Source of the DNA: Arthrobacter ginkgonis
GTDB lineage: Bacteria; Actinomycetota; Actinomycetes; Actinomycetales; Micrococcaceae
Direction of reading: 5' to 3'
Length of the DNA: 24,000 bases
Assembly: GCF_039540195.1 (NCBI RefSeq)
Contig: NZ_BAABEO010000025.1
Span: forward strand, 83,631 to 107,630
Shown piece after piece: positions 8,096 through 24,000 of the stretch. The notes beneath the pieces were generated by a model, which worked only from the letters and a program-made list of their open reading frames with translations, made no database searches and had not been told where the DNA came from. Positions within the stretch are counted from its first letter, which is position 1, and each line of letters starts with the position of its first letter. The translations under genes were made by a program, and so were the position numbers.

Positions 8096-8109
8096 CCCCG
8101 GCACGGACC

Positions 8110-8148: not shown

Positions 8149-8197
8149 TCCCGGCCGCCTTCGGCCCGATGCGGGATCGGCCCAATCCAGGGTCGAT

Positions 8198-9016: not shown

Positions 9017-9043
9017 CCCACCAGCATGTCAGGACGGCACGAT

Positions 9044-9076
9044 GGCGGCACGCATCGCAGGATGATGCGTGCCGCC
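9044..9076 (-). terminator. Stem-loop just downstream of the MFS gene
   Basis: 13-bp perfect stem GGCGGCACGCATC (9044-9056) / GATGCGTGCCGCC (9064-9076) with a 7-nt loop. It lies 17 nt past the MFS stop (9093) in the direction of transcription and 28 nt upstream of the next gene's start (9016). Confidence 0.45.
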
Positions 9077-9092
9077 GTCGTCGACCTTCGTC

Positions 9093-10475: not shown

Positions 10476-10542
10476 GTCGATTGTCCCTAGTGGTTAACGG
10501 TGCCCGCGGGCACGTGCCGATGAGGTACTTCGGATACAGGTC

Positions 10543-10572
10543 GGCGGCACGAGCCGGATGACTCGTGCCGCC
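10543..10572 (-). terminator. Stem-loop between the esterase stop and the MFS start (terminator/attenuator candidate)
   Basis: 11-bp perfect stem GGCGGCACGAG (10543-10553) / CTCGTGCCGCC (10562-10572) with an 8-nt loop, in the 131-nt gap between 10607 and 10475. Confidence 0.4.
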
Positions 10573-10606
10573 GATGGATAGGCGGAAGGGGCGGGGCCCC
10601 GTGGGC

Positions 10607-11530: not shown

Positions 11531-11545
11531 TGGGCGACCTCGGCC

Positions 11546-12655: not shown

Positions 12656-12720
12656 TGTTTTTCTCTTTCTTGACCCAGGGCGTCCCTGGAAAAACGGGGG
12701 TGTGGTGGTGTGCCGAAGGA

Positions 12721-13674
12721 TCAGGCCTGGATCGCCAGGAAGTCGGCAGGGTTCTCTTCGAAGATGGCCTTGAGCTGCGCGTCGCCGATGCCGTTGGTGC
12801 GCATGTCGGGGATCAGCACCTCGAAGATGTAGTTCACGGTGTGGCCCTTGACGCCGGGCCAGCCGAGCGGGCTGCAGTTGGCGTCGGCGGAGACGAGGAG
12901 CTGGTCGAGGTATCCCTTGCCCACCAGGTCGATGAAGTGGTCCATGCGGTCCTTGCGCGGACGGGCCCAGAACGGCGGGTCCGGGAGCTCGGTTTCGTAG
13001 CCGAAGGTGTCGAAGCCGATGCGGCCGCCTTCGCCCATGATCATTTCGCTGGGGGTGCTCGCCGCGTTCAGGCCGTCGTCGGCGTGCCCGAAGAGCACGC
13101 GGTCCAGCGGCAGGCCCTCCTCGCGGAAGATCGCGATCGCCGGCTCGGGGTCGATGGCCAGGTGGGTGAGGACCGGCACCCCGGTCACGACGGCGGCGCG
13201 GGCCGCTGCCCGGTAGATGCGCTTGTCCAGTTCGGTCATGCGGCCACCGCGGCTTACGCCGACCTTGATGATGCCGGCCTTGCTGCCGGTGTCCCCGATG
13301 CCCACGGTGATCTCGTGGATGAAGACCCGGGCCAGGTAGTCGACGGTCGCACGGGCGAAGTGCGGCAGCGCGGTGTCCCCGCCGACGAACCCGGTGCAGG
13401 CGACGATGTTGACGCCGGTCTTCCTGGACAGGGACTTGTAGTAGTCGATGTCGCGGCCGTTGCAGATGCCGGTGGCGTCGACGAAGGTCCCGCCGCCGTT
13501 TTCGTGGAACGTGCGCAGCTTCGGCACCGTCTCTTCGTAGGCCTGCTCGGGCGTCTTCCACCACTTGGAGTCCAGCTCGGACCCGGGCATGCCGTATCCG
13601 ATGTGCTCGTGGATGGCCACCAGGCCCAGTTCTTCGGCCGGGATCGTCCCCAGCACGGTGTTTACCTTGGTCAT
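12721..13674 (-). CDS. Phosphotriesterase-family (PTE/PLL-like) amidohydrolase with a canonical metal-ligand set
   Basis: VAIHEHI (HxH), AGIIKVGVS (candidate carboxylated Lys), VPVLTHLA (His), VLFGHADD (His), LLVSADAN (Asp). RBS GAGGGGA precedes the ATG at 13674. Confidence 0.8.
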   Translation of the reverse strand: MTKVNTVLGTIPAEELGLVAIHEHIGYGMPGSELDSKWWKTPEQAYEETVPKLRTFHENGGGTFVDATGICNGRDIDYYKSLSRKTGVNIVACTGFVGGDTALPHFARATVDYLARVFIHEITVGIGDTGSKAGIIKVGVSRGGRMTELDKRIYRAAARAAVVTGVPVLTHLAIDPEPAIAIFREEGLPLDRVLFGHADDGLNAASTPSEMIMGEGGRIGFDTFGYETELPDPPFWARPRKDRMDHFIDLVGKGYLDQLLVSADANCSPLGWPGVKGHTVNYIFEVLIPDMRTNGIGDAQLKAIFEENPADFLAIQA

Positions 13675-13721
13675 TACTGTCCCCTCGGGAAAAAGCTTGT
13701 TGGGTGTGTGCCGCCGCGCGT

Positions 13722-14705
13722 TCAGCGCACCGACAGCAGGTTGCGCGGGTTGTCGACGAGGATGCGCTGGGCATCCTCGTCGCTCAGGCCCTGCGACTTG
13801 AGGAAGGGCGCGAACGTGGACAGGACGTAGCTGTACGGCAGGTCGTAGTCCGGCAATCCCTTGGCCACGCCGATCGCGTTGCCGGACAGGATGATCTGGT
13901 GCCCGTGGCCGGCCGCGACGAGTTCGAGCACCAGGGCCGCGCGCTCGCGGTCGGTGAGGTAGTCGCCGTCGTCGTTCAGGCCGACGTGGTCCAGGCCCAC
14001 GAAGGCCCCCCGGCGGGCCACCTCATGGGCGGCGCCGGCGGCGTCCTTGCGGTCAAGGTCCCCCACAAGCACCCGGTCGGCCGGAATCTTCTCCTCCAGC
14101 ACGACGTCGAGGTCGTGCACGGCGTCGGCGCCGAAGCGGATGGACACCGGCACCCCGGTGTCCAGCGCGGCGCGGGCCGAACCGCGGAACAGGCTCTCCT
14201 CGGTGGCGGTCATGCCGCTGCGGTCGGCGGTGGTCGTGACGATGCCGGCGGCGGCACGGCGCTCAACGCGGGGGACCACCATGCCCTCGGTGACCTCCTT
14301 GGAGAAGAGGTCCGCGAACTTCTCGGCCGGCCACGGGGTCGGGGGGTTGGTCTGCGGCGTCAGAAAGTAGCCGCCGAGCTCCTCCTCGGGGCCAAGGCCC
14401 GTGGAGGCGACGATGTGCACGCCGGTAGAGCGGGACAGGGCCTCGTAGAGCTTGAGGTCGCGGCCGTGGAACATGCCTGTACTGTCGACGATGGTCTTTC
14501 CGCCCTGGGCGCGGAAGTCCGCCAGCTTCGCGGCCAGGATCTCGAAGATCTCCGCCCGGTCCATGGTGATGTCCGGGGCGTACTGGGCGCCGGGGAGCAC
14601 CGAGAGCAGGGCCTCGTGGACCCCGACAACACCCAATTCGTGAGCGGGGACGGGGCCAAGGACCGTGTTGACGGTTTGGCCGGTGACATTCGTTGTATCC
14701 GTCAT
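13722..14705 (-). CDS. PTE-family paralog with most metal-ligand positions substituted (possible pseudoenzyme or partner subunit)
   Basis: It is colinear by eye with the downstream PTE gene (TVNTVLG.VPA.ELG.V..HE..., GG.T.VD.TG...GRD...Y..LSR.TGV.IVA.TG, AAGIV, TGVPV, DRVL.G). The ligand positions read VHEALL (second His->Ala), GIVTTTA (Lys->Thr), VSIRFG (His->Arg), LVGDLDR (His->Asp) and ILSGNAI (Asp->Asn). The ATG at 14705 has GAAAGG 8 nt upstream; the track start is GTG at 14711. Confidence 0.7.
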   Translation of the reverse strand: MTDTTNVTGQTVNTVLGPVPAHELGVVGVHEALLSVLPGAQYAPDITMDRAEIFEILAAKLADFRAQGGKTIVDSTGMFHGRDLKLYEALSRSTGVHIVASTGLGPEEELGGYFLTPQTNPPTPWPAEKFADLFSKEVTEGMVVPRVERRAAAGIVTTTADRSGMTATEESLFRGSARAALDTGVPVSIRFGADAVHDLDVVLEEKIPADRVLVGDLDRKDAAGAAHEVARRGAFVGLDHVGLNDDGDYLTDRERAALVLELVAAGHGHQIILSGNAIGVAKGLPDYDLPYSYVLSTFAPFLKSQGLSDEDAQRILVDNPRNLLSVR

Positions 14706-14905
14706 TGGCACAACCTTTCGTCAGCGTCACGCCCTCATTGGCGTCACGCGCTGGGAAGGATCATGCACCGCGCGACCTCTGGATGGATCCTCGCCGAACT
14801 CGGTGCAGGCGATGTAAACGAAGGAGACAGCGCGCGGGGAGCCCAGGATCCGCTATGGACCCTAGTCCCCTGCTCGCGCCTGTGACCTTGATTACCTGCG
14901 TACTA

Positions 14906-14933
14906 GATTTACATGTTGTTATGCCAAAGTCAA
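14906..14933 (-). promoter_or_regulatory. Candidate sigma70-type promoter for the PTE operon, with an adjacent CTAG-centred element
   Basis: On the minus strand: TTGACT (14933-14928), a 16-nt spacer, then TAAATC (14911-14906). This is the only AT-rich stretch (14886-14935) in the gap between the GntR stop and the PTE-like start. GTACTAGAT (14899-14907) half-resembles the HutC/DasR-type core GTCTAGAC. Confidence 0.3.
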
Positions 14934-14985
14934 TGGAGAGTCTCCCGCAGCTGGCCGCGCTCCTCCTTCGGGGCCCGGCGGCGAC

Positions 14986-15729
14986 TCAGCGGCTGGTGGT
15001 GAACCGGTACTTGAAATCCTCGGCACGGTGCACCGCGGAACGCCATCCCGCGGGCAGGCCCCCGGTCGTGAAGAAGGTTGTCTCGATGACGAGCAACGGG
15101 CTCCCCTCGCCCACGCCGAAGGTCGCCGCCTGGCCGGCGGTTGCCGCCGTCGCCCAGGCTTCGTGCTCGGCCCGGTCGAGCGTGATGCCGAACTCCCGCT
15201 CCAGCAGCTCGAAGGCGGATCCCCGGTCTTCCAGTTCCTCAATCGAGGGGCTGAACTCCTCGGGCGCGCGAACATAGATGCTGGCTTCCACGAGAGGCTC
15301 GTTCTCGACCGAGATCAACCGGATGAAATGCAGGAGCCGTTCGTGCGCTTCGAGCCCCAAGAGGTCCCGAATCCGGGCGGGGGGTTCCACGCGTTCGATG
15401 CCGGAAACCGTCCCGGTCGGATGCAGTCCGCTGTCGGAGAGGTACTGGTACAGGGCCCCCGACCGCACGTCGGCCGGCCGCCGCACCCGGGCACCCGTGA
15501 CCGGGAACGTCCCCTTGCCTTGCTTCCTGTAGACGTACCCCTCGCTGACGAGCTCCTGGAGGGCCTGCCGGATGGGCGCCCGGCTGACGTCGAATCGGCC
15601 GAGCAGCTGCGCCTCGGTCATCGGCGTGTTGGGATCCACGTTTCCCTCGGCGATCTCCCTGCGCAGGATTTCCTTGATCTGCCGATACAGGGGTACCCCG
15701 GACGAGGGATCGAGCTCGCCATATGCCAT
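14986..15729 (-). CDS. GntR-family transcriptional regulator, HutC subfamily (wHTH + UTRA effector domain)
   Basis: Likely start ATG 15729 ([29 protein letters not shown]...[35 protein letters not shown]). The C-terminal half has a UTRA-like layout (chorismate-lyase fold pattern). Confidence 0.8.
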   Translation of the reverse strand: [247 protein letters not shown]

Positions 15730-15826
15730 CAGTCTTCTGTTCCTCCACGCCAGGTGCCACCGGGTTGTAGCCTGCAGGAAGTCAACCACAGAACGGCGAA
15801 AGCATAGGCGACGGCGTTCGGCAGCC

Positions 15827-15854
15827 TTGACGGGTCAATCCATCTCTATACAGT
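15827..15854 (+). promoter_or_regulatory. Candidate promoter for the DUF2231 gene
   Basis: TTGACG (15827-15832), a 16-nt spacer, then TACAGT (15849-15854, TANNNT type), 30 nt upstream of the GTG at 15884. Confidence 0.35.
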
Positions 15855-15883
15855 CGAGCCGCGTCGGCGTAGCGTCAGCAAGC

Positions 15884-16423
15884 GTGAGCGAATTGTCACT
15901 GCCGCAACGACTGGCCCGGGCCGTGGGCGAAAGTTCCCTCTCGGAACGGGTGGCTGTCGCCCAAGAGCGCGTCTACGGACCGGTTATCGACTGGGCGCGG
16001 CGCAGCCCCTTTCACACCAGCGTCCTCGGCCACTCCGTGCATCCACCCCTCACCGACGTGACGCTTGGATGCTGGATGAGTGCGTCCATCCTCGACCTCG
16101 CCGGAGGACCCCAGGCACGGCGCGGTGCCACGCTCCTGGTCGGAGCCGGGCTGGCGGCGGCCGGGCCGACCGCCCTTGCAGGCACCAGCGACTGGGCGGA
16201 AATGAACGGCCCCGAGCGGCGGATCGGCGCGGTACACGCACTGGGCGCCAATGCCGCCGCCTTCCTTTTCCTCGGTTCCCTGATCGCGCGGATGCGCGGC
16301 CGCCATGGCCTCGGCGTGGGTCTGGGTCTCGCCGGAAACGCCATCGCGGCCGGAGCAGGATTCCTGGGCGGGCATCTGGCGCTCACCCACGGAACGGCCC
16401 GGCGGACCACCGAAGCCACCTAG
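15884..16423 (+). CDS. DUF2231-like membrane protein
   Basis: Within track ORF 15572..16423, with a proposed GTG start at 15884 (VSELSLPQRL...). It has the motif GHSVHPPLTDVTLGCWMSASILDL followed by 3-4 hydrophobic segments. The start codon is uncertain. Confidence 0.55.
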   Translation: MSELSLPQRLARAVGESSLSERVAVAQERVYGPVIDWARRSPFHTSVLGHSVHPPLTDVTLGCWMSASILDLAGGPQARRGATLLVGAGLAAAGPTALAGTSDWAEMNGPERRIGAVHALGANAAAFLFLGSLIARMRGRHGLGVGLGLAGNAIAAGAGFLGGHLALTHGTARRTTEAT

Positions 16424-16507
16424 CCACCAATCGCCCGGGCCTGCACCGGCCCACTGGCAGGACGCGGCCCAGGAATACCCGCCGTCGCCGTCGGGTTGGC
16501 TCCTGAT

Positions 16508-16783
16508 GTGAAGAAGATCGGATTCCTGTCCTTCGGCCACTGGACCGACCACCCGCAGTCCGGCACGCGCAGCGCGTCGGACGCGCTCCTGCAGGCGATC
16601 GACCTCGCGGTCGCGGCCGAGGAGCTCGGCGCGGACGGCGCCTACTTCCGTGTTCACCACTTCGCGCAGCAATACGCCTCCCCGTTCCCGCTGCTCGCCG
16701 CGATCGGGGCACGGACCAGCCGAATCGAGATCGGCACGGGCGTCATCGACATGCGCTACGAGAATTGCAACTCCATGAATTGA
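16508..16783 (+). pseudogene. 5' fragment of an LLM-class (luciferase-like) flavin-dependent oxidoreductase gene, truncated by insertion
   Basis: VKKIGFLSFGHWTDHPQSGTRSASDALLQAIDLAVAAEELGADGAYFRVHHFAQQYASPFPLLAAIGARTSRIEIGTGVIDMRYEN matches the N-terminal roughly 25% of LLM enzymes of about 330-350 aa. After the Asn codon (16763-16765) the frame reads CNSMN-stop, and the integrase gene begins within about 10 nt. Confidence 0.65.
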
Positions 16784-16800
16784 GCTACCTTGGGTAGCGT
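16745..16800. other. Host/element junction (attL-like); crossover inferred near 16765-16768
   Basis: LLM homology by eye ends at ...MRYEN (codon 16763-16765). The element-derived sequence tgcaactccatgaattgagctaccttgggtagcg runs into the integrase start. The exact core dinucleotide cannot be determined from one junction. Confidence 0.4.
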
Positions 16801-18352
16801 GACCGACAACCGCCTCCGCGCTGTGCTGTACCTCAGATTGTCGGCTGTGTCCGACGACTCCACCAGCCTCGATCGTCAGGAAAGAGACCTGCGCGAGCAC
16901 GCCGGGCGCAAGGGCTGGCACGTCACCGAGGTCCTCGTAGATGAAGGCATCTCCGGCAGGAAAGCCCGCGCCAAGGCCGCCGAGGCCGTCCGTATGATCG
17001 CCGACGACGAGGCCGACGTCCTGGCCGTGTGGAAGTTGGACCGCTTTACAAGAATGGGCTATGACGGGCTCGGCGCGCTCTCCCAGGCCCTCGCCACCCG
17101 CGCCGAGGGCGCCAAGGCTGGCCGGTGCATCCCGGCGCTATTCGTCGCCCTGCATGACGGCCTCAATTCCAATCAAGCCGCGTTCCGCATGATCGCGGGC
17201 GTATTGAGCGAGGTTGCCAGGAGCGAGGCCGAGAACGCCGCCGCGCGCATTGCTAACTCGATCGAGCACCGCAAGACACGGACCCATAAATTCGCGGGAG
17301 GGTCCGCCGTGCCGCTCGGCTACCGCTCTGTCCCGGCGCCGGACGGTACGGGGCGCATCCTCGTACACGACGACGAGGAGGTCGCCCTTATCCGCGACGT
17401 GGCGGCGCGCATCCTCTCCAATATCGAGTCGCTTACCGGCATCGCCGCCGACCTGAACAAGCGCGGCGTGCCGACGTCCAGGTCGCTCGCGCGCCGCGCG
17501 CTCCGCCAGGGGTTGCCCGCCGAGGGCCTGGATACTGGCAAGTGGACTGTGTCGACGTTCCGCAACGTCTGGACGTCCGACGTGCTCCTCGGCCGCGTCG
17601 TGCATCGTGGCAAGTTCGTTTCCGACGCCGCCGGAATCCCCTTGGCCGTATGGCCGCCGATCCTGGACCGCTCCACCCTGGACGCTCTCCGCGTCCGCAT
17701 GAACTGGAAGCCGCGCAAGGATCAACGCGGCCCGCTGGGGCTCCCGCCCGCGCCGAAACCGAAGGTCCAACCTACCCGCAAGCGTGCCGCGCGGATCTTG
17801 TCGTCGGTCGCGTTCTGTGGGCTCTGCGACTCGCGCCTGTACGTGACGACGACGTCGGGCACACCTATCTACAAGTGCGGGTCTAGCTGGAATGGTGAGA
17901 AATGCCCTTCGCCGTCGATCACCGCCGACGCCCTGGACGAGTACGTCGCCGCCCGCGTCCTGGCCGTCGCCGGAGAGTGGCCCGAAATGGCTACCGAGAC
18001 GATCGCCAGCGGCGGCGCCCCCGAGGCGACCCTCGCCGAGATCGAGGCTCTCCTCCGCGAGGCGTCCGTCGCCATGACGGAGGACGACGCCCAGGTGCCG
18101 GAACTCCTGGAGCGGATCGCCGGACTCAAGGCCCGCCGTGCCGACCTCCGCGCCCGCCCCGTGACCGTCGAGACCGTAAGCAAGCCCACCGGCCGCACGC
18201 TGGCCGAGGCATGGGACGCCGACGAGGGCACCGCCTGGCGCCGTTCTGTCCTCCTATGGGCGATCGACCATGTCCGCGTCGGTCCGCGTACGCCCGGCAT
18301 GGGCACCCGCGCATTCGACGAGGACCGCGTCGCGATCTACTGGAACTCCTGA
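16790..18352 (+). CDS. int: Large serine recombinase (Bxb1/phiC31-type serine integrase)
   Basis: N-terminal resolvase domain with a catalytic Ser context AVLYLRLSAVSDDSTSLDRQ, and VWKLDRFTR. It also has a recombinase domain, zinc ribbon FCGLCDSRLYV...YKCGSSWNGEKCPS, a coiled-coil segment (EIEALLRE...LLERIAGLKARRADLRAR) and a C-terminal WRRSVLLWAIDHVRV. The architecture parallels Bxb1 gp35 as I recall it. The start is TTG 16790 or GTG 16799. Confidence 0.9.
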   Translation: MGSVTDNRLRAVLYLRLSAVSDDSTSLDRQERDLREHAGRKGWHVTEVLVDEGISGRKARAKAAEAVRMIADDEADVLAVWKLDRFTRMGYDGLGALSQALATRAEGAKAGRCIPALFVALHDGLNSNQAAFRMIAGVLSEVARSEAENAAARIANSIEHRKTRTHKFAGGSAVPLGYRSVPAPDGTGRILVHDDEEVALIRDVAARILSNIESLTGIAADLNKRGVPTSRSLARRALRQGLPAEGLDTGKWTVSTFRNVWTSDVLLGRVVHRGKFVSDAAGIPLAVWPPILDRSTLDALRVRMNWKPRKDQRGPLGLPPAPKPKVQPTRKRAARILSSVAFCGLCDSRLYVTTTSGTPIYKCGSSWNGEKCPSPSITADALDEYVAARVLAVAGEWPEMATETIASGGAPEATLAEIEALLREASVAMTEDDAQVPELLERIAGLKARRADLRARPVTVETVSKPTGRTLAEAWDADEGTAWRRSVLLWAIDHVRVGPRTPGMGTRAFDEDRVAIYWNS

Positions 18353-18376
18353 GAGCCGCCCGGCGGCCCCGTACGG

Positions 18377-18406
18377 AAGCCCCGGACACATTCCTGGCCG
18401 GGGCTT
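18377..18406 (+). terminator. Stem-loop after the integrase gene
   Basis: AAGCCCCGG (18377-18385) / CCGGGGCTT (18398-18406) with a 12-nt loop, followed by TCCTATTCCC. It lies 25 nt after the stop. Confidence 0.45.
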
Positions 18407-18983
18407 TCCTATTCCCGCACACGGGCGCCCAGAGCCGCCCAGGAGACCGCCCGGCACCGCGCGGCCTAGGCGTTCCGCGCCCGTCCTCCGCGCTTCTAGG
18501 TCCAGTCCCGCGCCTGGATCCTGGCGCCGACCCGAGGAGCCCCAGACGCCCCGCTGAGGCCCTCCTCTTGTCTCCGGCGGCTGGCGCCGGTCCTGTCCGC
18601 GCGAGGCCCGGAGGTGGCCACGTGGCGACCTTGGATCCCTGCGCCGTGGCCAGGCTGGCGGGCGGCGCCCGCCTCGGCGAGATGCCAGCCCGTTTACACG
18701 CCGAGGACAACGCGGGAGGAGGCGGCCGTCGCCCCCGTGCCAGTTTCCCCGCCAGGAGGCGCCGCCCCAGGATCCGCCCGTGCCCGGCGGGCCTGAAGGC
18801 TCTGGCCCGGTTCCGAGGCCGCCAGGCGGCCGCCCAGGGCGCCGGAGGAGGTGGCGGCGGTTCGCCCTCGCGGGGAGAGGGCGGCCCGCCCCGTGCCCGC
18901 GTCCGTGCCAGCGCGGGAGACGACGGCCGGAGGCGCCGGAGAGGTCGTTTTCCCGACCCTGGACGCCTGCGTCTGAGCCTAAA

Positions 18984-19092
18984 GGTGGTGGAAGTGGTGA
19001 AAGTGGAGGTACTTCTCTATCCGTTCTCAAGTAAAGCCATTACTTGAGTAGAGATATAGAGAGACCACCACTTTCGCCACTTTCACCACTTC
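18984..19092. repeat. Module 1: inverted arrays of 9-bp GTGGNGNNN units flanking an AT-rich core with a central hairpin
   Basis: Left array is GGTGGTGGAAGTGGTGAAAGTGGAGGT (18984-19010). The right array, as its reverse complement, is GAAGTGGTGAAAGTGGCGAAAGTGGTGG (19092-19065). The identical 16-mer GAAGTGGTGAAAGTGG lies at 18991-19006 and inverted at 19077-19092. TCTCTAT/ATAGAGA is also inverted. The central hairpin is CTCAAGTAA (19026-19034) / TTACTTGAG (19040-19048) with a 5-nt loop. Confidence 0.8.
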
Positions 19093-19223
19093 GGGCCGTC
19101 ACCGGCCGCCCTGGCCCGCTCCCCGCGCGATCGTGACCGGCCGCACGCCCCGGCCGTGGACAGTTTCGGCGCTCCTGGCGGTCTTCTCTCTTGTAAGCAC
19201 CCGACCACGACCCCGGCCCGGTC

Positions 19224-19387
19224 GGATCCGCATTTAACGGACCCTGGCCGTCTACTCAGACGGGAGAGACCCGCGCATTTGTAACACCCCCGGCCGTCTA
19301 CTCAGACGGGAGAGATCCGCGCCCGCGTCCTGTACGCCCGGCCGTCTACTCCAGTAGGAAAGATCCGCGCCGCGTGCGCCTGGATCC
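19224..19387 (+). repeat. Tandem direct repeat, period 46-48 bp, about 3 copies, each with a conserved 31-bp core containing a 6-bp hairpin
   Basis: GGCCGTCTACTCAGACGGGAGAGACCCGCGC begins at 19246 and GGCCGTCTACTCAGACGGGAGAGATCCGCGC at 19292. A degenerate copy GGCCGTCTACTCCAGTAGGAAAGATCCGCGC begins at 19340. CCGTCT-ACTC-AGACGG is self-complementary. Flanking (GA)TCCGC(GC)ATTTRTAAC is also repeated before copies 1 and 2. Confidence 0.85.
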
Positions 19388-19404
19388 TCCCCCCCACCAA
19401 GTTT

Positions 19405-19610
19405 GAACCGTCCGCGCCCGCGCACTCTCCGGGGCGCGGCGGTTCGCACCCCGTCCGAGCGGCCTAAGCCCCCGCTCGGCGCTGGCCCTCGTGGCCGGTC
19501 TTTTCATGGATGGGACCCGGTAGCCCCGCCGCCGTAAACCCGGCGGGGCTACTGCCCTCCTGTCCGTGAGCCCTCACCCGCCGCCGTACCCTCGGCGGCA
19601 TTTTCATTTG
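19405..19610 (+). ncRNA. Structured untranslated region: four or five consecutive GC-rich hairpins, the last terminator-like (candidate leader/attenuator or small RNA)
   Basis: H1 at 19405-19445 pairs GAACCG(T)CCGCGCCC with GGGCGCGGCGGTTC. H2 at 19455-19479 pairs CCGAGCGG with CCGCTCGG. A weak stem with TCTTTTC lies at 19482-19505. H3 at 19520-19552 pairs GTAGCCCCGCCG with CGGCGGGGCTAC (12 bp, perfect). H4 at 19580-19599 pairs GCCGCCG with CGGCGGC and is followed by ATTTTCATTTG (to 19610). No ORF covers the region. Whether this is an RNA, and on which strand, is inferred. Confidence 0.3.
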
Positions 19611-19648
19611 CCAAACAAAGTAAGCCAACGCCCGAAAGGAGGCCGCCC

Positions 19649-19864
19649 ATGGCCGACCATGTCTGTCTCATTTGTCACCGCCCGTTCACTGGCCAGGCCA
19701 GCGCGGAAACGTGCTCTACAGCCTGCCGAGTCACCCGCTCCCGGCGGCGCAAGGAGGCCGAGCGCCGGAAGGCCCTGGACCTCCTGGCCCGCATGGCCAC
19801 CGCCCGCGACCCGGCCGTCGTCGAGTCGCTCCGGCGCGAGGCCGAGCGCCTCACCCGCGACTAG
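19649..19864 (+). CDS. Small zinc-ribbon-like basic protein (71 aa), function unknown
   Basis: Strong RBS GAAAGGAGG sits 6 nt before the ATG. The sequence MADHVCLICHRPFTGQASAETCSTACRVTRSRRRKEAERRKALDLL has a CxxC-x12-CxxxC arrangement followed by an Arg/Lys-rich helix. Confidence 0.7.
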   Translation: MADHVCLICHRPFTGQASAETCSTACRVTRSRRRKEAERRKALDLLARMATARDPAVVESLRREAERLTRD

Positions 19865-19870
19865 CCCGCG

Positions 19871-19944
19871 AGTGGTGAAAGTGGCGTTTGTGGTCTTTCT
19901 TCTGTTCGTTTCTACAGTTCTGCTCTCTCTAGCCACACCACACC
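19871..19944. repeat. Module 2: a second GTGG-unit array, pyrimidine/AT-rich core and CCAC-rich inverted partner
   Basis: AGTGGTGAAAGTGGCG (19871-19886) is identical to the reverse complement of 19075-19090 in module 1. It continues TTTGTGGTCTTTCTTCTGTTCGTTTCTACAGTTCTGCTCTCTCTA, then GCCACACCACACC (19932-19944). It starts 7 nt after the zinc-ribbon gene stop. Confidence 0.7.
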
Positions 19945-20171
19945 CCCCCAAACTCACCCCCCACACGCTGACTAGGCGAAATGCGCCTATTTGCCCGCCT
20001 ACGCATGGTGCGTGTGGTGAGTAGCCGGCCCCTATTTACAGCGGCCGGCAATTCACGCGGGGAGAGCCTCCGGCCCTTACGCCCGGAGGGCGTTTGTGTC
20101 CCTCCAACTCACGCCCGCAAGTACCGCCCCACACCGGGGCACCGCCCCCACCCCTTGAAAGGACCCCCACC

Positions 20172-21029
20172 ATGCCTAGCCCCGTCCGCCTGACCGCCTG
20201 GACCGCCAACCCGTCCACCTCCACCAACCCGCTCCCGTCGCCGTCGACGGCCCGCCGTTCCGGCGGCTGGCCGATTGGTCTCCTGTCCGAACTCCTGGCC
20301 CCGGAGATCGCCCGGAGGGGCGTCACGTACAAGCGTGGCCAGGGGTTCCGCCAGTTCGGCGAGACCCTGGACGACTACGCCGTCGCGACGATTGCGCGCA
20401 CGGTCCTAACGATCGCGGCCGAGCACCTGGACCCGCACCAGTCCCGTTATGAGTCCCTGGAGCGTGTCCGCGACATGGCCGCCGAGTGGATGGACGAGGC
20501 CCACGCCGAGGCTCACAGCATGATCGACGACTACGAGGAGGCCGAGGCGGTCGCCCAGGCCGCTACGGCGGCGCCTACGTCGTTCTACGCCGCCGCCGTC
20601 GAGGGCATGGAGGCCCGCGACGCGCTGGCCCTGGATCGTGAGACGGCCGCCCGTGTGGCGCCGTTCGATGAGTACGCCGTCGCCTTGTCTCGCACGGCCC
20701 GCGACCTGAAACAGTCCGGCCACGCCCGCGCCGCCCTGGCTCGGGATCTGCGTTCGCTCCTGCCCGCGCCGGTTGCCGAGGCGGACACCTCCGGGGACGA
20801 CGCGGCCGCGTGGCTGTCCCAGTTCGACGAGGTCGACAAGGTCCGCCAGGCCGACCTCGCCCGCGAGTACGACCTGGACGGCGCGCCCGGCGGCCTGTCC
20901 GGTTCCGAGTTGCGCGCCCTGGCGGCGACCCGTTGGGGGATGCCGCGCGCGTTGCGTGGTTACCCGACGTTCCGGCCCGCGCGTGCGGCCGACCGTACCG
21001 CCCGCGAGACCGTCGGCGCCGCCAATTGA
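20172..21029 (+). CDS. Hypothetical protein (285 aa), Ala/Asp/Glu-rich, no recognised domain
   Basis: ATG 20172 is preceded by TTGAAAGGACCCCCACC, inside track ORF 20094..21029. Composition is coding-like, unlike the overlapping Arg/Pro-rich shadow frames. Confidence 0.65.
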   Translation: MPSPVRLTAWTANPSTSTNPLPSPSTARRSGGWPIGLLSELLAPEIARRGVTYKRGQGFRQFGETLDDYAVATIARTVLTIAAEHLDPHQSRYESLERVRDMAAEWMDEAHAEAHSMIDDYEEAEAVAQAATAAPTSFYAAAVEGMEARDALALDRETAARVAPFDEYAVALSRTARDLKQSGHARAALARDLRSLLPAPVAEADTSGDDAAAWLSQFDEVDKVRQADLAREYDLDGAPGGLSGSELRALAATRWGMPRALRGYPTFRPARAADRTARETVGAAN

Positions 21030-21151
21030 GCGCCGCCAACCGTGCGACCGCCTACGGCCTCACCGGCGCCACTGCCGTTCTCTACCGCCTGGCGGCGTTA
21101 GAGGCCCAGGTCGACGAGGCTCTCGCCCGCCCGACCGCCCCCACCCGATAA
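21026..21151 (+). CDS. Possible 41-aa helical micro-protein (SAANRATAYGLTGATAVLYRLAALEAQVDEALARPTAPTR)
   Basis: TTG at 21026 overlaps the upstream TGA (21027-21029) as TTGA, and the stop TAA is at 21149-21151. It fills the gap to the next gene and has a heptad-like LAALEAQVDEAL. No independent RBS is present. Confidence 0.25.
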   Translation: MSAANRATAYGLTGATAVLYRLAALEAQVDEALARPTAPTR

Positions 21152-21181
21152 CCCCAACCCCTCCCGAAAGGACCCCCACCC

Positions 21182-21607
21182 ATGAATTTCCGCACCCCGG
21201 ACAACTACGGCCGCCCGATCTACCCGGCCGCCGTTGTCGCCGTTGTCCCTGGCGCCTCCGAGGCCCTGGCCGCTTGGACGGCCGCCACGGACCCGACCGA
21301 GGCCGCCACCCTCCGCGCCGCCCTGGATGACCTGATGGGCGGCCCCGATAACTACGTGGCCCGCACCCGCGCGGCCGCCACGCTGGCCCTGGAGGCCCAG
21401 GCCGACGCCGTCACCGCTTGGCAGGCTCTCCGCACCGCCCTGGCGACCCGCGAGGCCGCCCTCGGCTACGTCGTCCCCGGCCGTACCTGGCGCCTGCCCG
21501 TGGCCCCGCCTGGCGGCGTCGCCGAGGGGGCCGCCCAGGTCGAGCACATGATCGACGCTTTCGTTTCCGGCCTGGACGTTGACGCCCTGGAAATCATCGC
21601 CAACTAG
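21182..21607 (+). CDS. Hypothetical protein (141 aa); short member of a tandem paralog pair
   Basis: ATG is preceded by CCGAAAGGACCCCCACCC. It shares N-terminal G(R/Q)x(I/V)YPA...GAxEALAAW and C-terminal G(L/F)DVDALE blocks with the next ORF. Confidence 0.7.
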   Translation: MNFRTPDNYGRPIYPAAVVAVVPGASEALAAWTAATDPTEAATLRAALDDLMGGPDNYVARTRAAATLALEAQADAVTAWQALRTALATREAALGYVVPGRTWRLPVAPPGGVAEGAAQVEHMIDAFVSGLDVDALEIIAN

Positions 21608-21675
21608 CCCCAACCCCACCCCCGCCATTCGCCGTCCGGCGTCCTGGCACCCCATCCCCGAAAGGACCCCATCCC

Positions 21676-22407
21676 ATGAGTACCCACACCCTCAAGATCA
21701 CCGCCAACGGCCAGCGCGTGTACCCGGCCTGGCTTATCCGCCTCACGTCCGGCGCCGAGGAGGCCCTCGCCGCGTGGGAGGCCTTGGACGCTGAGGCCCG
21801 GACCTACTTCGACGCCGTCCGCGCCGCCCTGCGGGCAAAGAACGAACTCGGCCGCATGGTCGACGGTGAACTCGTCCCCAAGCCCGGTATCCGCGCCGCC
21901 GCGCTTGAGGACGCCCAGGAGGCCGTCCGTCAGGCCGAGGCCGCCCAGGCCGCGCACGCCCGCAAGGTGAGCGCCGCCCGCCGCAAGTTCGACACCCTCA
22001 TGCAGAACCCGTCCGGCCCGGAGGTCCGCCGCAAGGCCGCCGCCGAGTACGCGATCGAACAGCACGCGGAAGTGGCCCGGCTGTGGCCGCTCCTGGCCGC
22101 CGCCCTGGAGGACCGCGACGACGCGCACCGCGTCGCCGGATCGCCGGGCCGCTCTTGGGAGAACACGGCTGGCGTCCCCAGCGGCGGCCGCTTCCATGTC
22201 GTCGGCGAGGCCGAGCGGATCCTCTCCGGTGCTATCGACGGTTTCGACGTCGACGCCCTGGAGCGTGTGGCCGCTGGCGAGGACGTCGCCCCCGCGATCG
22301 AACTGCACCCCGACGAGAGCAACCCCGCCCAGGCAATCAAGAAGGCCGAGGAGAGGCGCGCCGCTAGCCAGGCCGAGGCGGCCCGCTCCCGCGCCGCCGG
22401 TTTTTAG
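21676..22407 (+). CDS. Hypothetical protein (243 aa); long member of the same paralog pair
   Basis: ATG is preceded by CCGAAAGGACCCCATCCC. NGQRVYPAWLIRLTSGAEEALAAWEALD and ILSGAIDGFDVDALERVAAG match the upstream ORF. The central Ala/Arg/Glu-rich helical insert is unique to this copy. Confidence 0.7.
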   Translation: MSTHTLKITANGQRVYPAWLIRLTSGAEEALAAWEALDAEARTYFDAVRAALRAKNELGRMVDGELVPKPGIRAAALEDAQEAVRQAEAAQAAHARKVSAARRKFDTLMQNPSGPEVRRKAAAEYAIEQHAEVARLWPLLAAALEDRDDAHRVAGSPGRSWENTAGVPSGGRFHVVGEAERILSGAIDGFDVDALERVAAGEDVAPAIELHPDESNPAQAIKKAEERRAASQAEAARSRAAGF

Positions 22408-22494
22408 CCCGCCCTCCCTCACCACTCCCGCGCCGGGGTCCCGCGTTACTGCGTGGCCCTGGCGCACCCATACCCGCCCCCAGAAAGGCACCCC

Positions 22495-22740
22495 ATGACC
22501 AACGCCCACAACATCGCCGACGAGATCCTCGCCAAGTCCTCCAAGGGCCTCCCGGCCAGGTATACCGACCTGGACGACCGCACGCGCGCCCTTGTCGAGT
22601 CCCGCGCGGCCGCCGCCGGTACGACCCCGGAAAACTACTGGTCCGCCGTCCTGGCCCAGCGCGAGCAGGACCAGGCCAAGCGCGACGCCTCCGCCAAGGC
22701 CCAGGAGATCGCCCTAGCCGCCCGTTCGCGCGGCTACTAG
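22495..22740 (+). CDS. Hypothetical protein (81 aa)
   Basis: ATG 22495 is preceded by CAGAAAGGCACCCC, inside track ORF 22453..22740. Sequence: MTNAHNIADEILAKSSKGLPARYTDLDDRTRALVESRAAAAGTTPENYWSAVLAQREQDQAKRD... Confidence 0.6.
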   Translation: MTNAHNIADEILAKSSKGLPARYTDLDDRTRALVESRAAAAGTTPENYWSAVLAQREQDQAKRDASAKAQEIALAARSRGY

Positions 22741-22747
22741 GCCCGCC

Positions 22748-23044
22748 GTGCTGGAGACCGGCCGGAGGATGCCGAAGAAAACGCGGGAGCAACGAGCGTA
22801 TGACCGCCGTGTTCGTTCCCGCGTCGAGGGCTTCATGGTCTGCCTCGGCAAGTTCGCCACCGACGCCCACGCGGACGCCGTCCCGCTCGGTCTCCTCGGC
22901 TGGCTCCGCCGCTCCGAGTACCTCGCACTGTCCGAGGCCGAGCGGCTGGAGCACCTCAAGGCCGCCGTCCGCGCTGAGGTGAAGGCCGACGAGGGACCGC
23001 GCCCCGCGCACCCTGACGAGGCCGAGCCCTGGCCCACCTACTAA
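22748..23044 (+). CDS. Hypothetical protein (91-98 aa); short member of a second tandem paralog pair
   Basis: Start is GTG 22748 or ATG 22769. EQRAYDRRVRSRV...FA...A.PLGLL...YLALSEAERLEHLKAAVRAEVKADEGPRPAHPDE aligns with the N-terminal half of the next ORF. Confidence 0.6.
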   Translation: MLETGRRMPKKTREQRAYDRRVRSRVEGFMVCLGKFATDAHADAVPLGLLGWLRRSEYLALSEAERLEHLKAAVRAEVKADEGPRPAHPDEAEPWPTY

Positions 23045-23075
23045 CCCAACTCGTTTACACGAAGGACCCAACCCC

Positions 23076-23711
23076 ATGAACATCGAGACCACCGCCACCG
23101 AGACCAGCAAGCCGAATCACACCCCGGAACAGCGCCGCTATGACCGCGCGGTTTACCGCCGCGTTAAGCGCGGCATGGAGCACAGCGCCAGGTTCGCCGC
23201 CGCCGACGCCGCAACCGCCCCGCTCGCCCTCATGGCGCCCCACTCCCGCGCGGCCTGGCTGGCCCTGGACGAGGCCGCACGCCTGGACCATTTGCGCCAG
23301 GTCCTCCGCGCCCAGGCTAAGGCCGTCATCGGCCCGCGCCCGGAGGACGTCGAGGAGACCGCACCGGCCACCGTCGAGACCACGGCCGCACCGGCCACCG
23401 TCGAGACCACGGCCGCACCGGCCACGCCTGCCCGCCCCTCCGGCCGCCGCCTCGTCGTTGCCTGCATCGGCGGGTGCGGAACCTGGATAGTCGCCACCTC
23501 GGCCCGGCCCGCCGTCGTGCGATGCACGCCCGGCCAGCGCCGCGCCCAGCGCGAGGACCCGACCGGCGCCGCTCCCGTTGAGGCCCGCTCGTCGCACGCC
23601 GCGACCGCCTCGGCCGTCGACTACTCCGCCGCCCGTGCCGAGCGCCCGGCCGCCGCCCAGGGTAGGCGCAAAGCCAAGCGCCGCGCCCGCGCCGCGACCT
23701 GCGGCAAGTAG
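23076..23711 (+). CDS. Hypothetical protein (211 aa); long member of the second paralog pair, with a 9-aa tandem repeat and a Cys-containing basic C-terminal extension
   Basis: ATG is preceded by ACGAAGGACCCAACCCC. EQRRYDRAVYRRV...FAAADAATAPLALM...WLALDEAARLDHLRQVLRAQAKAVIGPRPEDVEE is paralogous to the upstream ORF. It continues with PATVETTAA x2.5, then VVACIGGCGTWIV...VVRCTPGQRR and an RRKAKRRARA tail. Confidence 0.65.
   Translation: MNIETTATETSKPNHTPEQRRYDRAVYRRVKRGMEHSARFAAADAATAPLALMAPHSRAAWLALDEAARLDHLRQVLRAQAKAVIGPRPEDVEETAPATVETTAAPATVETTAAPATPARPSGRRLVVACIGGCGTWIVATSARPAVVRCTPGQRRAQREDPTGAAPVEARSSHAATASAVDYSAARAERPAAAQGRRKAKRRARAATCGK
23361..23428 (+). repeat. In-frame 27-bp tandem repeat, about 2.5 copies
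   Basis: GCACCGGCCACCGTCGAGACCACGGCC occurs at 23361-23387 and identically at 23388-23414, with a partial copy GCACCGGCCACGCC at 23415-23428. Confidence 0.9.
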
Positions 23712-23725
23712 CCACGCACACCGAG

Positions 23726-23765
23726 AGGAGGCCGAGCACATGCACAAGCACACGCTCGGCCTCCT
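23726..23765 (+). terminator. Stem-loop after the 211-aa ORF
   Basis: 12-bp perfect stem AGGAGGCCGAGC (23726-23737) / GCTCGGCCTCCT (23754-23765) with a 16-nt loop, 15 nt after the stop. About 155 nt of non-coding DNA follows before the next RBS. Confidence 0.4.
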
Positions 23766-23919
23766 AGCCCGGCCAGGGTGGGGGGTGACCCCTCCCCCGC
23801 CCCCTCGCTCCTGCCCGAAGCGGCATAGCACTAGGCCCCAAGCGTGCGACCCGTGTTTTTCAGCCCCAGCCCATCCCCGGCCGTCCCTACGGCCACCACG
23901 ACGACCAGGAGGTCGCCCC

Positions 23920-24000
23920 ATGACTACCCCAACCGCCCCAGCCGTCGACCCCGACGTCGACGAGATCCCCACTCCCGCGCACCTCGGCGAGGCGGGCGCG
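23920..24000 (+). CDS. Partial CDS (first 27 codons; runs off the right edge), hypothetical
   Basis: ATG 23920 is preceded by CAGGAGGTCGCCCC. It reads MTTPTAPAVDPDVDEIPTPAHLGEAGA and is open to the window end. Confidence 0.4.
   Translation, partial: MTTPTAPAVDPDVDEIPTPAHLGEAGA

What the first reader, a model, noticed from the sequence alone, without database searches (positions are those of the whole stretch)
16766..24000. Integrated element whose first 7 kb carries no recognisable phage, plasmid or ICE functions beyond the integrase
After the integrase there are eight or nine same-strand ORFs. They are Ala/Asp/Glu/Arg-rich and predicted helical by composition, and I can assign none of them to a known family. 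I see no HTH repressor/Cro pair, Xis/RDF, replication, terminase, capsid, FtsK/TraB or Nudix signature. The layout is also unusual: int, then a 1.3-kb structured non-coding block, then a unidirectional orphan operon. It does not match the Bxb1/L5 arrangement, where genes to the right of int are transcribed leftward. It could be an early/moron region of a novel prophage, a satellite, or a new AICE type.
Basis: inference. Interest (0 to 1): 0.65.

Follow-up and report, generated by a model that had tools for sequence, protein, structure and literature searches.

The report
Cos-type phage satellite of Arthrobacter-like phages
The "orphan" element is a complete 10.9-kb island that carries an integrase, a packaging (cos) site copied from temperate Arthrobacter phages and its own small terminase, but no virus-particle genes, so it is most likely a parasite (satellite) of those phages in a bacterial family where none has been described.

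Summary
After the serine integrase come seven complete same-strand ORFs that match nothing in Pfam, PHROGs, NCBIfam or PADLOC, preceded by a 1.3-kb non-coding block.

The element is not the start of a prophage. It is only 10,862 bp (window 16765-27626) and sits precisely inside an LLM oxidoreductase gene that is intact in two related genomes.

Three phage links were missed:
- A cos-like site at 23776-23860, homologous to the genome-end junction of cluster AZ Arthrobacter phages. Its overhang-like 11-mer matches theirs at 10 of 11 bases.
- A P27-type small terminase gene starting at 23920.
- An integrase about 60% identical to the AZ-phage integrases.

At least 12 sibling islands of roughly 7-11 kb share the serine integrase, TerS and the post-TerS gene. 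Most share the zinc-ribbon gene, and seven share part or all of the o243/o95/o211 orphan module. Some also carry AZ-phage capsid, adaptor, stopper, HNH or tape-measure homologues. None has TerL or portal.

The TerS is homologous to that of EPIPs, the 11-kb satellites isolated from Mycolicibacterium in 2025.

Best reading (about 0.72): a helper-dependent, cos-packaged satellite of AZ-like phages, in a "minimal" variant. This rests on sequence only. The scan has noted other serine-integrase satellites, but not this family.

The parts
16496..16764 (+). 5' part of the interrupted LLM (luciferase-like monooxygenase) gene; attL junction at 16761-16764 (AGAA)
   Evidence: PF00296 4.1e-14. The flank aligns at about 90% identity, up to this base, with intact genes in G033 and G017.
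16790..18352 (+). Large serine integrase (520 aa; start TTG 16790 or GTG 16799)
   Evidence: PF00239, PF07508 and PF13408; phrog_95 1.2e-70. It is 59-62% identical to the integrases of Arthrobacter phages VResidence, Tbone, KeAlii and Wildwest.
18353..19648 (.). Non-coding block. It holds a palindromic GTGGTGAAA-array module around an AT-rich core (18984-19092), three 46-48-bp tandem repeats (19242-19370) and two terminator-like hairpins (19481-19499, 19580-19599) just upstream of the zinc-ribbon gene. In sibling islands this slot holds a capsid-like or another gene.
   Evidence: No coding frame and no Rfam family. Repeats. Terminators. The same architecture is seen in L005, and a conserved terminator precedes the Zn gene in 6 relatives. 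No trace of the sibling capsid gene.
19649..19864 (+). Zn1: 71-aa CxxC...CxxxC zinc-ribbon protein with an Arg-rich helix. It is the first gene of the operon and a candidate DNA-binding regulator or excision factor.
   Evidence: Detected in 9 of 12 sibling loci, 33-54% identical to ours where tested directly. Only sub-threshold family hits.
19865..19978 (.). Repeat module 2. It is 86% identical to module 3, which lies beyond the window at 25378-25490, and starts with AGTGGTGAAAGTGG.
   Evidence: families D1, D20. The 14-mer occurs 4 times in the 5.19-Mb genome, all within the element. GTGGTGAAA (L006) or a diverged GTGACGAAG-type array (L005) follows the Zn1 gene in these two relatives.
20172..21029 (+). 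o285: 285-aa helical orphan protein of unknown function
   Evidence: Only one close homologue among 5.8 billion proteins. A profile finds 70 cluster representatives. No Pfam, PHROG or PDB match for 30 members. The AF2 model is unusable, pLDDT 44.
21182..21607 (+). o141: paralogue of the C-terminal half of o243
   Evidence: 34% identity, E 1.6e-9.
21676..22407 (+). o243: orphan protein; relatives in L005, L007, L072/73, L074 and L077
   Evidence: No phage match.
22495..22740 (+). o95: small orphan protein (alternative start GTG 22453), conserved in 6 sibling loci
22748..23044 (+). o98: paralogue of the N-terminal part of o211
   Evidence: 43-45% identity.
23076..23711 (+). o211: orphan protein with a Cys-rich centre; relatives in 7 sibling loci
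   Evidence: No phage match.
23776..23860 (+). cos-like site. It includes CGAAGCGGCAT at 23816-23826, which matches the 3' cohesive overhang of cluster AZ phages (CGAAGGGGCAT) at 10 of 11 bases.
   Evidence: An nhmmer profile was built from 7 sibling islands only. It gives one hit in the whole genome, here (E 2.7e-10; next best 1.1), and one hit in circularised phage VResidence, across its genome-end junction (E 7.4e-13). Overhang: PMC9119123.
23920..24000 (+). Start of terS, a P27-type terminase small subunit of 130 aa. The full gene is 23920-24312 and the window end cuts it. The rest of the element lies beyond the window (extrapolated coordinates; contig C25 = window + 83630):
- o123, the post-TerS gene, 24315-24686 (+)
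- Zn2, an 81-aa four-Cys protein, 24746-24991 (+)
- repeat module 3, 25378-25490
- HIRAN-domain protein, 25970-26671 (-)
- 47-aa ORF sm46, 26788-26931 (-)
- attR (AGAA), 27623-27626
- 3' part of the LLM gene, 27641-28396 (+).
   Evidence: terS: phrog_1496 8.3e-12. AF2 pLDDT 82. 26 of the top 33 Foldseek BFVD hits are annotated as small terminases and none as anything else. 64 homologues at 48-78% identity. hhalign 97.3%, E 2e-11, to the EPIP Alyssa1 terminase.
Beyond the window: ORFs; HIRAN PF08797 1.2e-12; repeats; attR and LLM 3' part; conservation in siblings.

Best explanation
The element is a 10.9-kb integrative phage satellite. Its likely helpers are temperate siphophages of the Arthrobacter 'cluster AZ' type (Azeevirinae).

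Shown by sequence:
- A phage-type large serine integrase inserted it precisely into a conserved codon position of an LLM gene.
- It carries a cos-like site homologous to the genome-end junction of AZ phages. A gene for its own P27-type small terminase lies directly downstream of that site.
- It has no TerL, portal, capsid, tail, lysis or recognisable replication genes.

Inferred:
- When an AZ-like phage infects or is induced, the island is excised. It has no recognisable recombination directionality factor (RDF), while the phages encode one. Excision may therefore be triggered by the helper's RDF, as ICP1 PexA does for PLE. Alternatively the conserved zinc-ribbon protein or an orphan ORF does this job.
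- The island is copied with helper or host functions. The GTGGTGAAA arrays around an AT-rich core are candidate origin or operator sites.
- Its TerS recruits the helper's TerL and HNH to cut the island's cos site, so island DNA is packaged into helper-built particles.

This copy has no capsid homologue, so it may be packaged as multimers: 4 x 10,862 = 43.4 kb, the size of an AZ genome.

The conserved orphan module (o285, o243/o141, o95, o211/o98) sits where sibling islands carry capsid, adaptor and stopper genes. It probably acts in hijacking or interference. The reverse-strand HIRAN gene occupies the variable cargo slot, which in siblings holds restriction-modification systems.
For: Boundaries and mobility:
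- The LLM gene is split, with Pfam positions 3-75 and 81-242 lying 10.9 kb apart.
- The site is intact and empty in G033 (same genus) and G017, with a 4-bp AGAA overlap.
- Siblings L006, L010 and L074 lie at the same ..DMRYEN| position.

Phage link:
- The integrase is 59-62% identical to AZ-phage integrases.
- VResidence's attP-like region shares a 12-bp core with the attB.

cos site:
- A profile built from 7 siblings alone hits the whole 5.19-Mb genome once, at window 23776-23860 (E 2.7e-10).
- The same profile hits circularised VResidence once, across its end junction (E 7.4e-13).
- The published AZ overhang is CGAAGGGGCAT (PMC9119123); this element has CGAAGCGGCAT.

TerS:
- phrog_1496 8.3e-12.
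- A confident AF2 model (pLDDT 82) whose named top hits are small terminases.
- Homologous to the terminase of the isolated satellite EPIP Alyssa1, hhalign 97.3%.

Family:
- All contexts of close TerS homologues read over the whole island are small islands with a serine integrase and no TerL or portal.
- Siblings carry AZ-phage gp5, MCP (46-49%), adaptor (70-78%), stopper (50-57%), HNH (39-74%) and a TMP-like gene.
- Cargo in siblings includes restriction-modification systems.
Against:
- No AZ-like helper prophage is present in this genome. The only phage structural module, on contig C45, is unrelated.
- The island's TerS is not similar to the AZ phage TerS, so its interaction with the helper TerL is assumed.
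- This copy lacks the capsid, adaptor and stopper genes that make the siblings convincing.
- The cos-like 11-mer differs from the AZ overhang at one base.
- The orphan ORFs have no assigned function, and no replication or regulatory protein is recognised.
Confidence: 0.72

Rival explanations
1. A satellite-derived island that is no longer mobilisable. It would be a decayed or domesticated copy that has lost its capsid, adaptor and stopper module and now persists as a fixed genomic island carrying cargo.
For: - The slot that holds a capsid-like gene in siblings is 1.3 kb of non-coding, very GC-rich DNA here.
- There is no helper of the AZ type in the genome.
- The cos-like overhang 11-mer has one mismatch to the AZ sequence.
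Against: - All ORFs are intact with strong GC3 bias and conserved ribosome-binding sites.
- int, the cos-like site and terS are intact.
- The same capsid-less 'minimal' layout recurs in L005, L007, L010, L014, L072/73, L074 and L077, with divergent sequences. It is therefore a maintained design, not one-off decay.
- The insertion is absent from the closest genomes, which suggests recent mobility.
Confidence: 0.12
2. A deletion remnant of a cluster AZ-like temperate prophage, in which the int-proximal genes and the cos end are left after loss of about 30 kb.
For: The integrase, the attP-type arm and the cos-like site are all AZ-phage-like. In AZ phages int is likewise followed by small same-strand ORFs.
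Against: - Both att junctions are precise and the host gene is restored on joining the flanks.
- None of the ORFs between int and cos matches any of 50,697 phage records or VResidence.
- The TerS belongs to a different family from the AZ phage TerS.
- At least 12 independent loci share this small architecture, with different integrases and insertion sites.
Confidence: 0.05
3. A non-phage integrative mobilisable or conjugative element (a new AICE or IME type) that only borrowed a phage integrase.
For: It is a small actinobacterial integrative element of AICE-like size. Many of its ORFs have unknown function, so a novel transfer protein cannot be formally excluded.
Against: - No Rep, FtsK/TraB-like, relaxase or Nudix domain in any ORF in Pfam, NCBIfam or PHROGs.
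- The two features that can be assigned are both phage DNA-packaging functions: cos and TerS.
- Siblings carry capsid, neck and tape-measure homologues.
Confidence: 0.04

Closest known systems
EPIPs (Extracellular Prophage-Inducing Particles), 11-kb satellites of the Mycolicibacterium aichiense prophage HerbertWM (bioRxiv 10.64898/2025.12.02.691453; e.g. Alyssa1, OR387110)
   Same: - An actinobacterial element of about 11 kb with a large serine integrase.
- A homologous P27-type small terminase (hhalign 97.3%, 34% identity).
- No portal, TerL or tail genes.
- Sibling islands of the present family also share the EPIP repertoire of capsid, head-to-tail adaptor, stopper and tape-measure genes.
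   Different: - This element has no capsid, adaptor, stopper, tape-measure or HTH gene.
- Only the TerS (34-36%) and the integrase fold (about 28%) are shared with Alyssa1.
- The host family (Micrococcaceae), the predicted helper (cluster AZ phages) and the gene order all differ.
- EPIPs were isolated as free particles; this element is known only as an integrated copy.
cos-type SaPIs (SaPIbov5 type) and P4: satellites that carry the helper's cos site (from general knowledge of these systems)
   Same: The cos-like site is homologous to the helper-type phage's cos. The helper phages carry HNH endonuclease genes next to cos and the terminase genes. Some siblings carry a capsid homologue, as SaPIbov5 carries Ccm.
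   Different: - This element encodes its own TerS, which cos SaPIs and P4 do not.
- It uses a serine rather than a tyrosine integrase.
- It has no Stl/Str, pri-rep, Sid/Psu, delta or epsilon homologues.
PLE of Vibrio cholerae
   Same: Both use a large serine integrase. The island itself has no recognisable RDF, which would fit excision driven by a helper-encoded factor.
   Different: There is no sequence relationship. PLE has its own replication initiator and is not cos-packaged. Helper-RDF dependence is only inferred here.
PICMIs (minimalist satellites of Vibrionaceae; PMC10803314)
   Same: Very reduced gene content, no capsid-remodelling genes, and possible packaging as concatemers into full-size helper capsids.
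   Different: The proteins are unrelated. PICMI helpers are virulent phages, whereas the predicted helpers here are temperate phages. Multimer packaging here is only an arithmetic inference (4 x 10.86 kb).
phiRv1/phiRv2-type 'PICI-like' elements of Mycobacterium (PMC10085698)
   Same: Small actinobacterial elements with a serine integrase and few phage genes.
   Different: Those elements carry capsid, protease, terminase and primase genes; this one has none of these beyond TerS. No sequence comparison was made here.

Membership tests
Phage satellite (general definition: small integrative element lacking a full virion gene set but carrying a packaging-hijack module) | Small size with defined ends and its own integrase | tested here: met
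   10,862 bp with precise attL and attR; the empty site is present in two relatives; serine integrase.
Phage satellite (general definition: small integrative element lacking a full virion gene set but carrying a packaging-hijack module) | Lacks TerL, portal, capsid, tail and lysis genes | tested here: met
   No such family in any ORF. tblastn with VResidence TerL, portal, MCP and tail proteins finds nothing in the element.
Phage satellite (general definition: small integrative element lacking a full virion gene set but carrying a packaging-hijack module) | Packaging signal and/or terminase small subunit matched to a helper | tested here: met
   cos-like site homologous to the AZ-phage end junction; own TerS.
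Phage satellite (general definition: small integrative element lacking a full virion gene set but carrying a packaging-hijack module) | Helper-dependent induction, packaging and transfer | not testable with these tools
EPIP class | Homologous terminase small subunit | tested here: met
   hhalign 97.3%, E 2.1e-11; tblastn 35.6% identity.
EPIP class | Serine integrase and a genome of about 11 kb | tested here: met
   520-aa serine integrase, about 28% identical to that of Alyssa1; 10.86 kb against 11.08 kb.
EPIP class | Major capsid protein, head-to-tail adaptor, stopper and tape-measure protein | tested here: not met
   Absent from this element. Present in siblings L006, L011, L015 and L008.
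EPIP class | HTH DNA-binding protein | tested here: not met
   No HTH domain in any ORF.
EPIP class | Induces excision of a helper prophage | not testable with these tools
   An experimental property.
PICI (SatelliteFinder-type definition, PMC10085698) | Integrase plus TerS or a capsid-morphogenesis gene | tested here: met
PICI (SatelliteFinder-type definition, PMC10085698) | Primase-replicase and AlpA/Stl-type regulator | tested here: not met
   No primase, helicase, replicase or HTH/AlpA domain found.
AICE (actinomycete integrative and conjugative element) | Rep protein and FtsK/SpoIIIE-like Tra protein | tested here: not met
   No such domain in any ORF.
Complete or defective prophage of cluster AZ type | Shares genes other than int, attP and cos with AZ phages | tested here: not met
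   Only the integrase of this element matches VResidence or Warda. The TerS is not the phage's TerS.

The most novel reading that the evidence does not exclude
The islands form an undescribed family of cos-type satellites of temperate cluster AZ Arthrobacter phages, in two designs. One design carries its own capsid, adaptor and stopper copies. The other, 'minimal' design, which includes this element, has replaced them with an unrelated conserved orphan module (o285, o243/o141, o95, o211/o98) that performs the hijacking or interference. The minimal design would have no RDF of its own and would be excised by the helper's RDF. Lacking a capsid-size gene, it would be packaged as tetramers that fill a normal 43-kb head.
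Probability: 0.25. Interest if true: 0.78.

Novelty: new variant of a known kind. Interest (0 to 1): 0.62.

Why it matters
Phage satellites shape gene flow and phage resistance. In Actinobacteria only a few have been isolated: the Streptomyces Mulch and Flayer systems, and the EPIPs in 2025. My literature searches found none described for Micrococcaceae.

This element and its relatives come with a concrete, testable helper prediction. Cluster AZ Arthrobacter phages are held in teaching-lab collections and grow on Arthrobacter globiformis B-2979. The islands share their integrase and attP module, their cos site and, in sibling islands, their head and neck genes.

That makes excision, packaging and interference experiments straightforward. 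It also gives a function-finding handle on at least four protein families that have no relatives in any library. In addition, it suggests where the attB of cluster AZ phages lies: in the LLM gene.

Tried and rejected
Searches on the orphan ORFs that led nowhere:
- Pfam, PHROGs, NCBIfam and PADLOC scans of all orphan ORFs gave nothing.
- tblastn of TerS (limit 1e-3), o285, o243, o211 and HIRAN against 50,697 phage records gave no match.
- The o285 family was tested with a profile of 30 members against Pfam, PHROGs and PDB: nothing.
- The o285 AF2 model, built on a 3-sequence alignment, had pLDDT 44. It was unusable and was not sent to fold search.
- The search for related loci with o285 alignments failed because no stretch is conserved enough.
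- hhalign of each orphan family against the phage adaptor, stopper, gp5, scaffold, HNH, TerS and RDF gave all probabilities below 26%. The idea that the orphans are diverged neck or scaffold proteins is therefore unsupported.

Ideas tested and dropped:
- A decayed capsid gene in the 1.3-kb block: no trace by tblastn.
- A known RNA family in the block: nothing above gathering score.
- A resident AZ-type helper prophage: none.
- The AZ phage TerS as a relative of the island TerS: no similarity.
- Zn2 as an HNH or endonuclease VII enzyme: only the zinc-finger part matches weakly and no catalytic motif is present.

Full report
**Where the element lies and how long it is.** The window is contig C25:83631-107630 of a 5.19-Mb, 70% G+C genome of the family Micrococcaceae. 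Relatives of the element's genes are named Arthrobacter, Paenarthrobacter and Micrococcus by their sources.

The LLM (luciferase-like monooxygenase) gene that ends abruptly at window 16764 resumes 10.9 kb downstream. Pfam PF00296 positions 3-75 lie at C25:100162-100377 and positions 81-242 at C25:111259-111795. Two related genomes, G033 (same genus) and G017, have the gene intact, at 94% and 91% protein identity. Aligning them with both flanks puts the junctions at ...CTACGAGAA|TTGCAAC... (attL) and ...GCGATAGAA|CCCGCTC... (attR), with AGAA common to both.

The element is therefore window 16765-27626, 10,862 bp. It is a precise, polymorphic insertion. This alone rules out the reading that the window shows the first 7 kb of a prophage.

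**Gene content.**
- GC3 frame analysis and ORF lists give a 520-aa large serine integrase (16790-18352).
- A 1.3-kb block without coding signal follows.
- Ten + strand genes come next: Zn1 (71 aa), o285, o141, o243, o95, o98, o211, a 130-aa gene at 23920-24312, o123 and Zn2. Most have the same GAAAGGA ribosome-binding context.
- A further ~1 kb of non-coding DNA follows.
- Two reverse-strand genes close the element: a 233-aa HIRAN-domain protein (PF08797, 1.2e-12) and a 47-aa ORF.

Pfam, PHROGs, NCBIfam and PADLOC give no significant hit. tblastn of o285, o243, o211 and HIRAN against 50,697 phage genomes finds nothing. o141 is a paralogue of o243, and o98 of o211.

**The small terminase.** The gene that straddles the window end matches PHROG 1496, 'terminase small subunit' (8.3e-12), and PHROG 83. 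It matches Pfam Terminase_4 only below the cut-off. An AlphaFold2 model built on 42 homologues is confident (pLDDT 82). Of its top 33 Foldseek hits in BFVD, 26 are annotated as terminase small subunits of the P27/COG3747 type and none as anything else. They include those of Mycobacterium, Corynebacterium and Gordonia phages.

**A family of small islands.** The TerS has 64 homologues at 48-78% identity. Every genomic context read over the whole island has the same layout:
- a serine integrase at one end
- a one-directional operon with TerS near its end
- a conserved ~95-aa gene after TerS
- variable, often reverse-strand cargo
- no TerL or portal.

These contexts are:
- Arthrobacter sp. AQ5-05
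- '[Micrococcus luteus] ATCC 49442'
- Paenarthrobacter sp.
- Arthrobacter sp. 2762
- Arthrobacter sp. NPDC089319
- Micromonospora aurantiaca
- five metagenome contigs
- one IMG/VR contig of 7.1 kb.

A presence/absence table shows the following:
- Universal: serine integrase, TerS and the post-TerS gene.
- Common: Zn1.
- The orphan set o243/o95/o211 is shared, in part or in full, by seven of the sibling loci (L005, L007, L010, L014, L072/73, L074, L077).

The 'orphan operon' is therefore a conserved module, not a random collection of morons. The o285 family has 70 cluster representatives among 1.8 billion proteins, but no Pfam, PHROG or PDB relative. Cargo in siblings includes restriction-modification systems and, twice more, a HIRAN protein.

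**Links to a specific phage group.** The integrase is 59-62% identical to the serine integrases of temperate Arthrobacter siphophages such as VResidence, Tbone, KeAlii, Wildwest and Phives (Azeevirinae, SEA-PHAGES cluster AZ). Sibling islands carry homologues of further genes of the same phages:

| AZ-phage gene | Identity | Sibling island(s) |
|---|---|---|
| gp5 | 51-55% | L006 |
| major capsid protein | 46-49%, full length | L006, L011, L015 |
| head-to-tail adaptor | 70-78% | L006, L011 |
| stopper | 50-57% | L006, L011 |
| HNH endonuclease | 39-74% | L006, L008, L074 |
| tape-measure-like protein | 26-32% | L008 |

The present element has none of these.

The LLM attB is shared. L006 sits at the same codon position (..DMRYEN|) in the same orientation, and L010 and L074 sit there in the opposite orientation. 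The attP-like sequence just upstream of the VResidence integrase gene shares a 12-bp core, GTTCTCGTAGCG, with the reverse complement of the attB. VResidence has an annotated RDF (gp30). No island has a homologue of it.

**The cos-like site.** A BLAST of the joined VResidence genome ends against the islands gave its best matches just upstream of terS in five islands, this one included.

To test this without circularity, I built an nhmmer profile from the pre-terS segments of seven sibling islands only. Neither this element nor any phage was used. The profile hits the circularised 42-kb VResidence genome once, across the junction of its ends (E 7.4e-13). It hits the whole 5.19-Mb host genome once, at C25:107406-107490, which is window 23776-23860, between o211 and terS (E 2.7e-10). 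The next best hit in the genome has E 1.1.

Cluster AZ phages have the 3' cohesive overhang CGAAGGGGCAT (PMC9119123). The element has CGAAGCGGCAT at 23816-23826, and sibling L011 has the exact 11-mer. So the reported range does hold a recognisable phage function: a packaging site of the AZ type.

**Closest known system.** The literature search found EPIPs. These are 11-kb satellites isolated in 2025 from Mycolicibacterium aichiense. They encode TerS, adaptor, stopper, serine integrase, HTH, scaffold, capsid and tape-measure proteins (PMC12822802).

EPIP Alyssa1 (OR387110) is in the phage collection. Its terminase is homologous to the TerS family here (hhalign 97.3%, E 2.1e-11, 34% identity). 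Apart from the integrase fold, nothing else is shared with this element. The sibling islands reproduce the EPIP gene repertoire with genes taken from AZ phages.

I found no paper describing satellites in Arthrobacter or Micrococcaceae. SatelliteFinder's survey reports actinobacterial PICI-like elements mainly as phiRv1/phiRv2.

**The non-coding block.** It contains the following features:
- a large imperfect palindrome of GTGGTGAAA-type 9-mers around an AT-rich core (18984-19092)
- three 46-48-bp repeats, each with a hairpin
- two terminator-like hairpins about 40-150 nt upstream of Zn1.

The 14-mer AGTGGTGAAAGTGG occurs four times in the genome, all in the element: 18993 (+), 19077 (-), 19871 (+) and 25384 (+). 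The Arthrobacter NPDC089319 island has the same architecture with diverged units. A terminator just before the Zn1 ribosome-binding site is conserved in six relatives.

These are plausible operator or origin sites, and Zn1 is the obvious candidate binder. That is inference only.

**Mechanism and weaknesses.**

Shown by sequence:
- site-specific insertion by a phage-type serine integrase
- an AZ-type cos-like site
- an own TerS
- no virion, lysis or recognisable replication genes
- membership of a conserved island family whose other members carry AZ-phage head and neck genes.

Inferred:
- helper-dependent excision, possibly through the helper's RDF
- replication with borrowed functions
- cos cleavage by the helper's TerL and HNH, directed by the island's TerS
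- packaging, possibly as tetramers (4 x 10,862 = 43.4 kb; AZ genomes are 41.8-44.7 kb).

Against:
- There are no experimental or read data.
- The genome holds no AZ-type prophage. Its only phage structural module is an unrelated one on contig C45.
- The island's TerS is unrelated to the AZ phage TerS.
- The orphan proteins remain without function.

The element is a new variant of a known kind. It is a minimal, capsid-less member of an apparently undescribed family of cos-type satellites of Micrococcaceae and some other actinomycetes. The family is distantly related to EPIPs through its TerS, and cluster AZ-like phages are the predicted helpers.

Noticed in passing
G000 contig C45 (17.9 kb), whole contig: A siphovirus structural module lies on a separate contig. 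It comprises TerL (Terminase_6N, 1.5e-10), then ORFs of 549, 363, 251 and 333 aa, a 772-aa tape-measure-like protein and minor-tail-sized ORFs. It is unrelated to VResidence and shares nothing with the island. It could belong to a resident prophage and so be an alternative helper.
   Followed up: partly
G000 contig C12:64,400-68,900: A second large serine recombinase (25-27% identical to the island and VResidence integrases) lies next to a primase/helicase-like gene (29% identical to VResidence gp38). This is probably another integrated element.
   Followed up: no
L010 (Paenarthrobacter sp. YIM B13468) 5030-5100 and L074 860-960, compared with window 16740-16800: Related islands use the same LLM attB position (..DMRYEN|) but in the opposite orientation relative to the host gene. 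This implies attP sites with complementary central dinucleotides within one integrase clade.
   Followed up: partly
L070 (Arthrobacter phage VResidence) 34600-34668: The inverted-repeat attP-like sequence just upstream of the phage integrase gene shares GTTCTCGTAGCG with the reverse complement of the LLM attB. Cluster AZ phages probably integrate into the orthologous LLM gene. I found no statement of their attB in the papers read.
   Followed up: partly
L043-L062 (Micrococcaceae genomes with remote TerS relatives, 35-44% identity): Most remote TerS relatives also sit in small islands: an integrase-sized gene, a few ORFs, a 260-300-aa ORF, then TerS and an ~80-100-aa ORF, with no TerL-sized gene after TerS. 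One (L054) lies beside smpB with a tyrosine integrase. The wider TerS clade may be largely satellite-borne.
   Followed up: partly
L005 4070-6431; L077 9284-11439: The cargo slot after the packaging module holds restriction-modification systems in sibling islands: an Eco57I-like methylase with a nuclease in L005, and NgoMIV with a C5-methylase in L077. In L007 it holds a Hypoth_Ymh protein. This is typical of defence cargo on satellites.
   Followed up: no
L008 (Micromonospora aurantiaca ATCC 27029, CP002162) 3200-15500: An ~11.5-kb island with the same TerS is inserted in an ssb-like gene. It carries HTH regulators, an HNH gene 56% identical to VResidence gp72 and a 764-aa tape-measure-like protein. 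This is the closest match to the EPIP gene set outside Mycobacteriaceae.
   Followed up: partly
L015 (IMG/VR UViG 3300048996_000234, 7,097 bp): A viral-database contig consists of little more than a serine integrase, a b163-like gene, a capsid homologue, a 272-aa-type gene, TerS and the post-TerS gene. It has no terminal repeat. It may be a nearly complete island of the capsid-bearing design.
   Followed up: partly
window 1-16500: The left two thirds of the window are host genes, including a GntR-type regulator at 14986-15789 (- strand). They were not examined.
   Followed up: no
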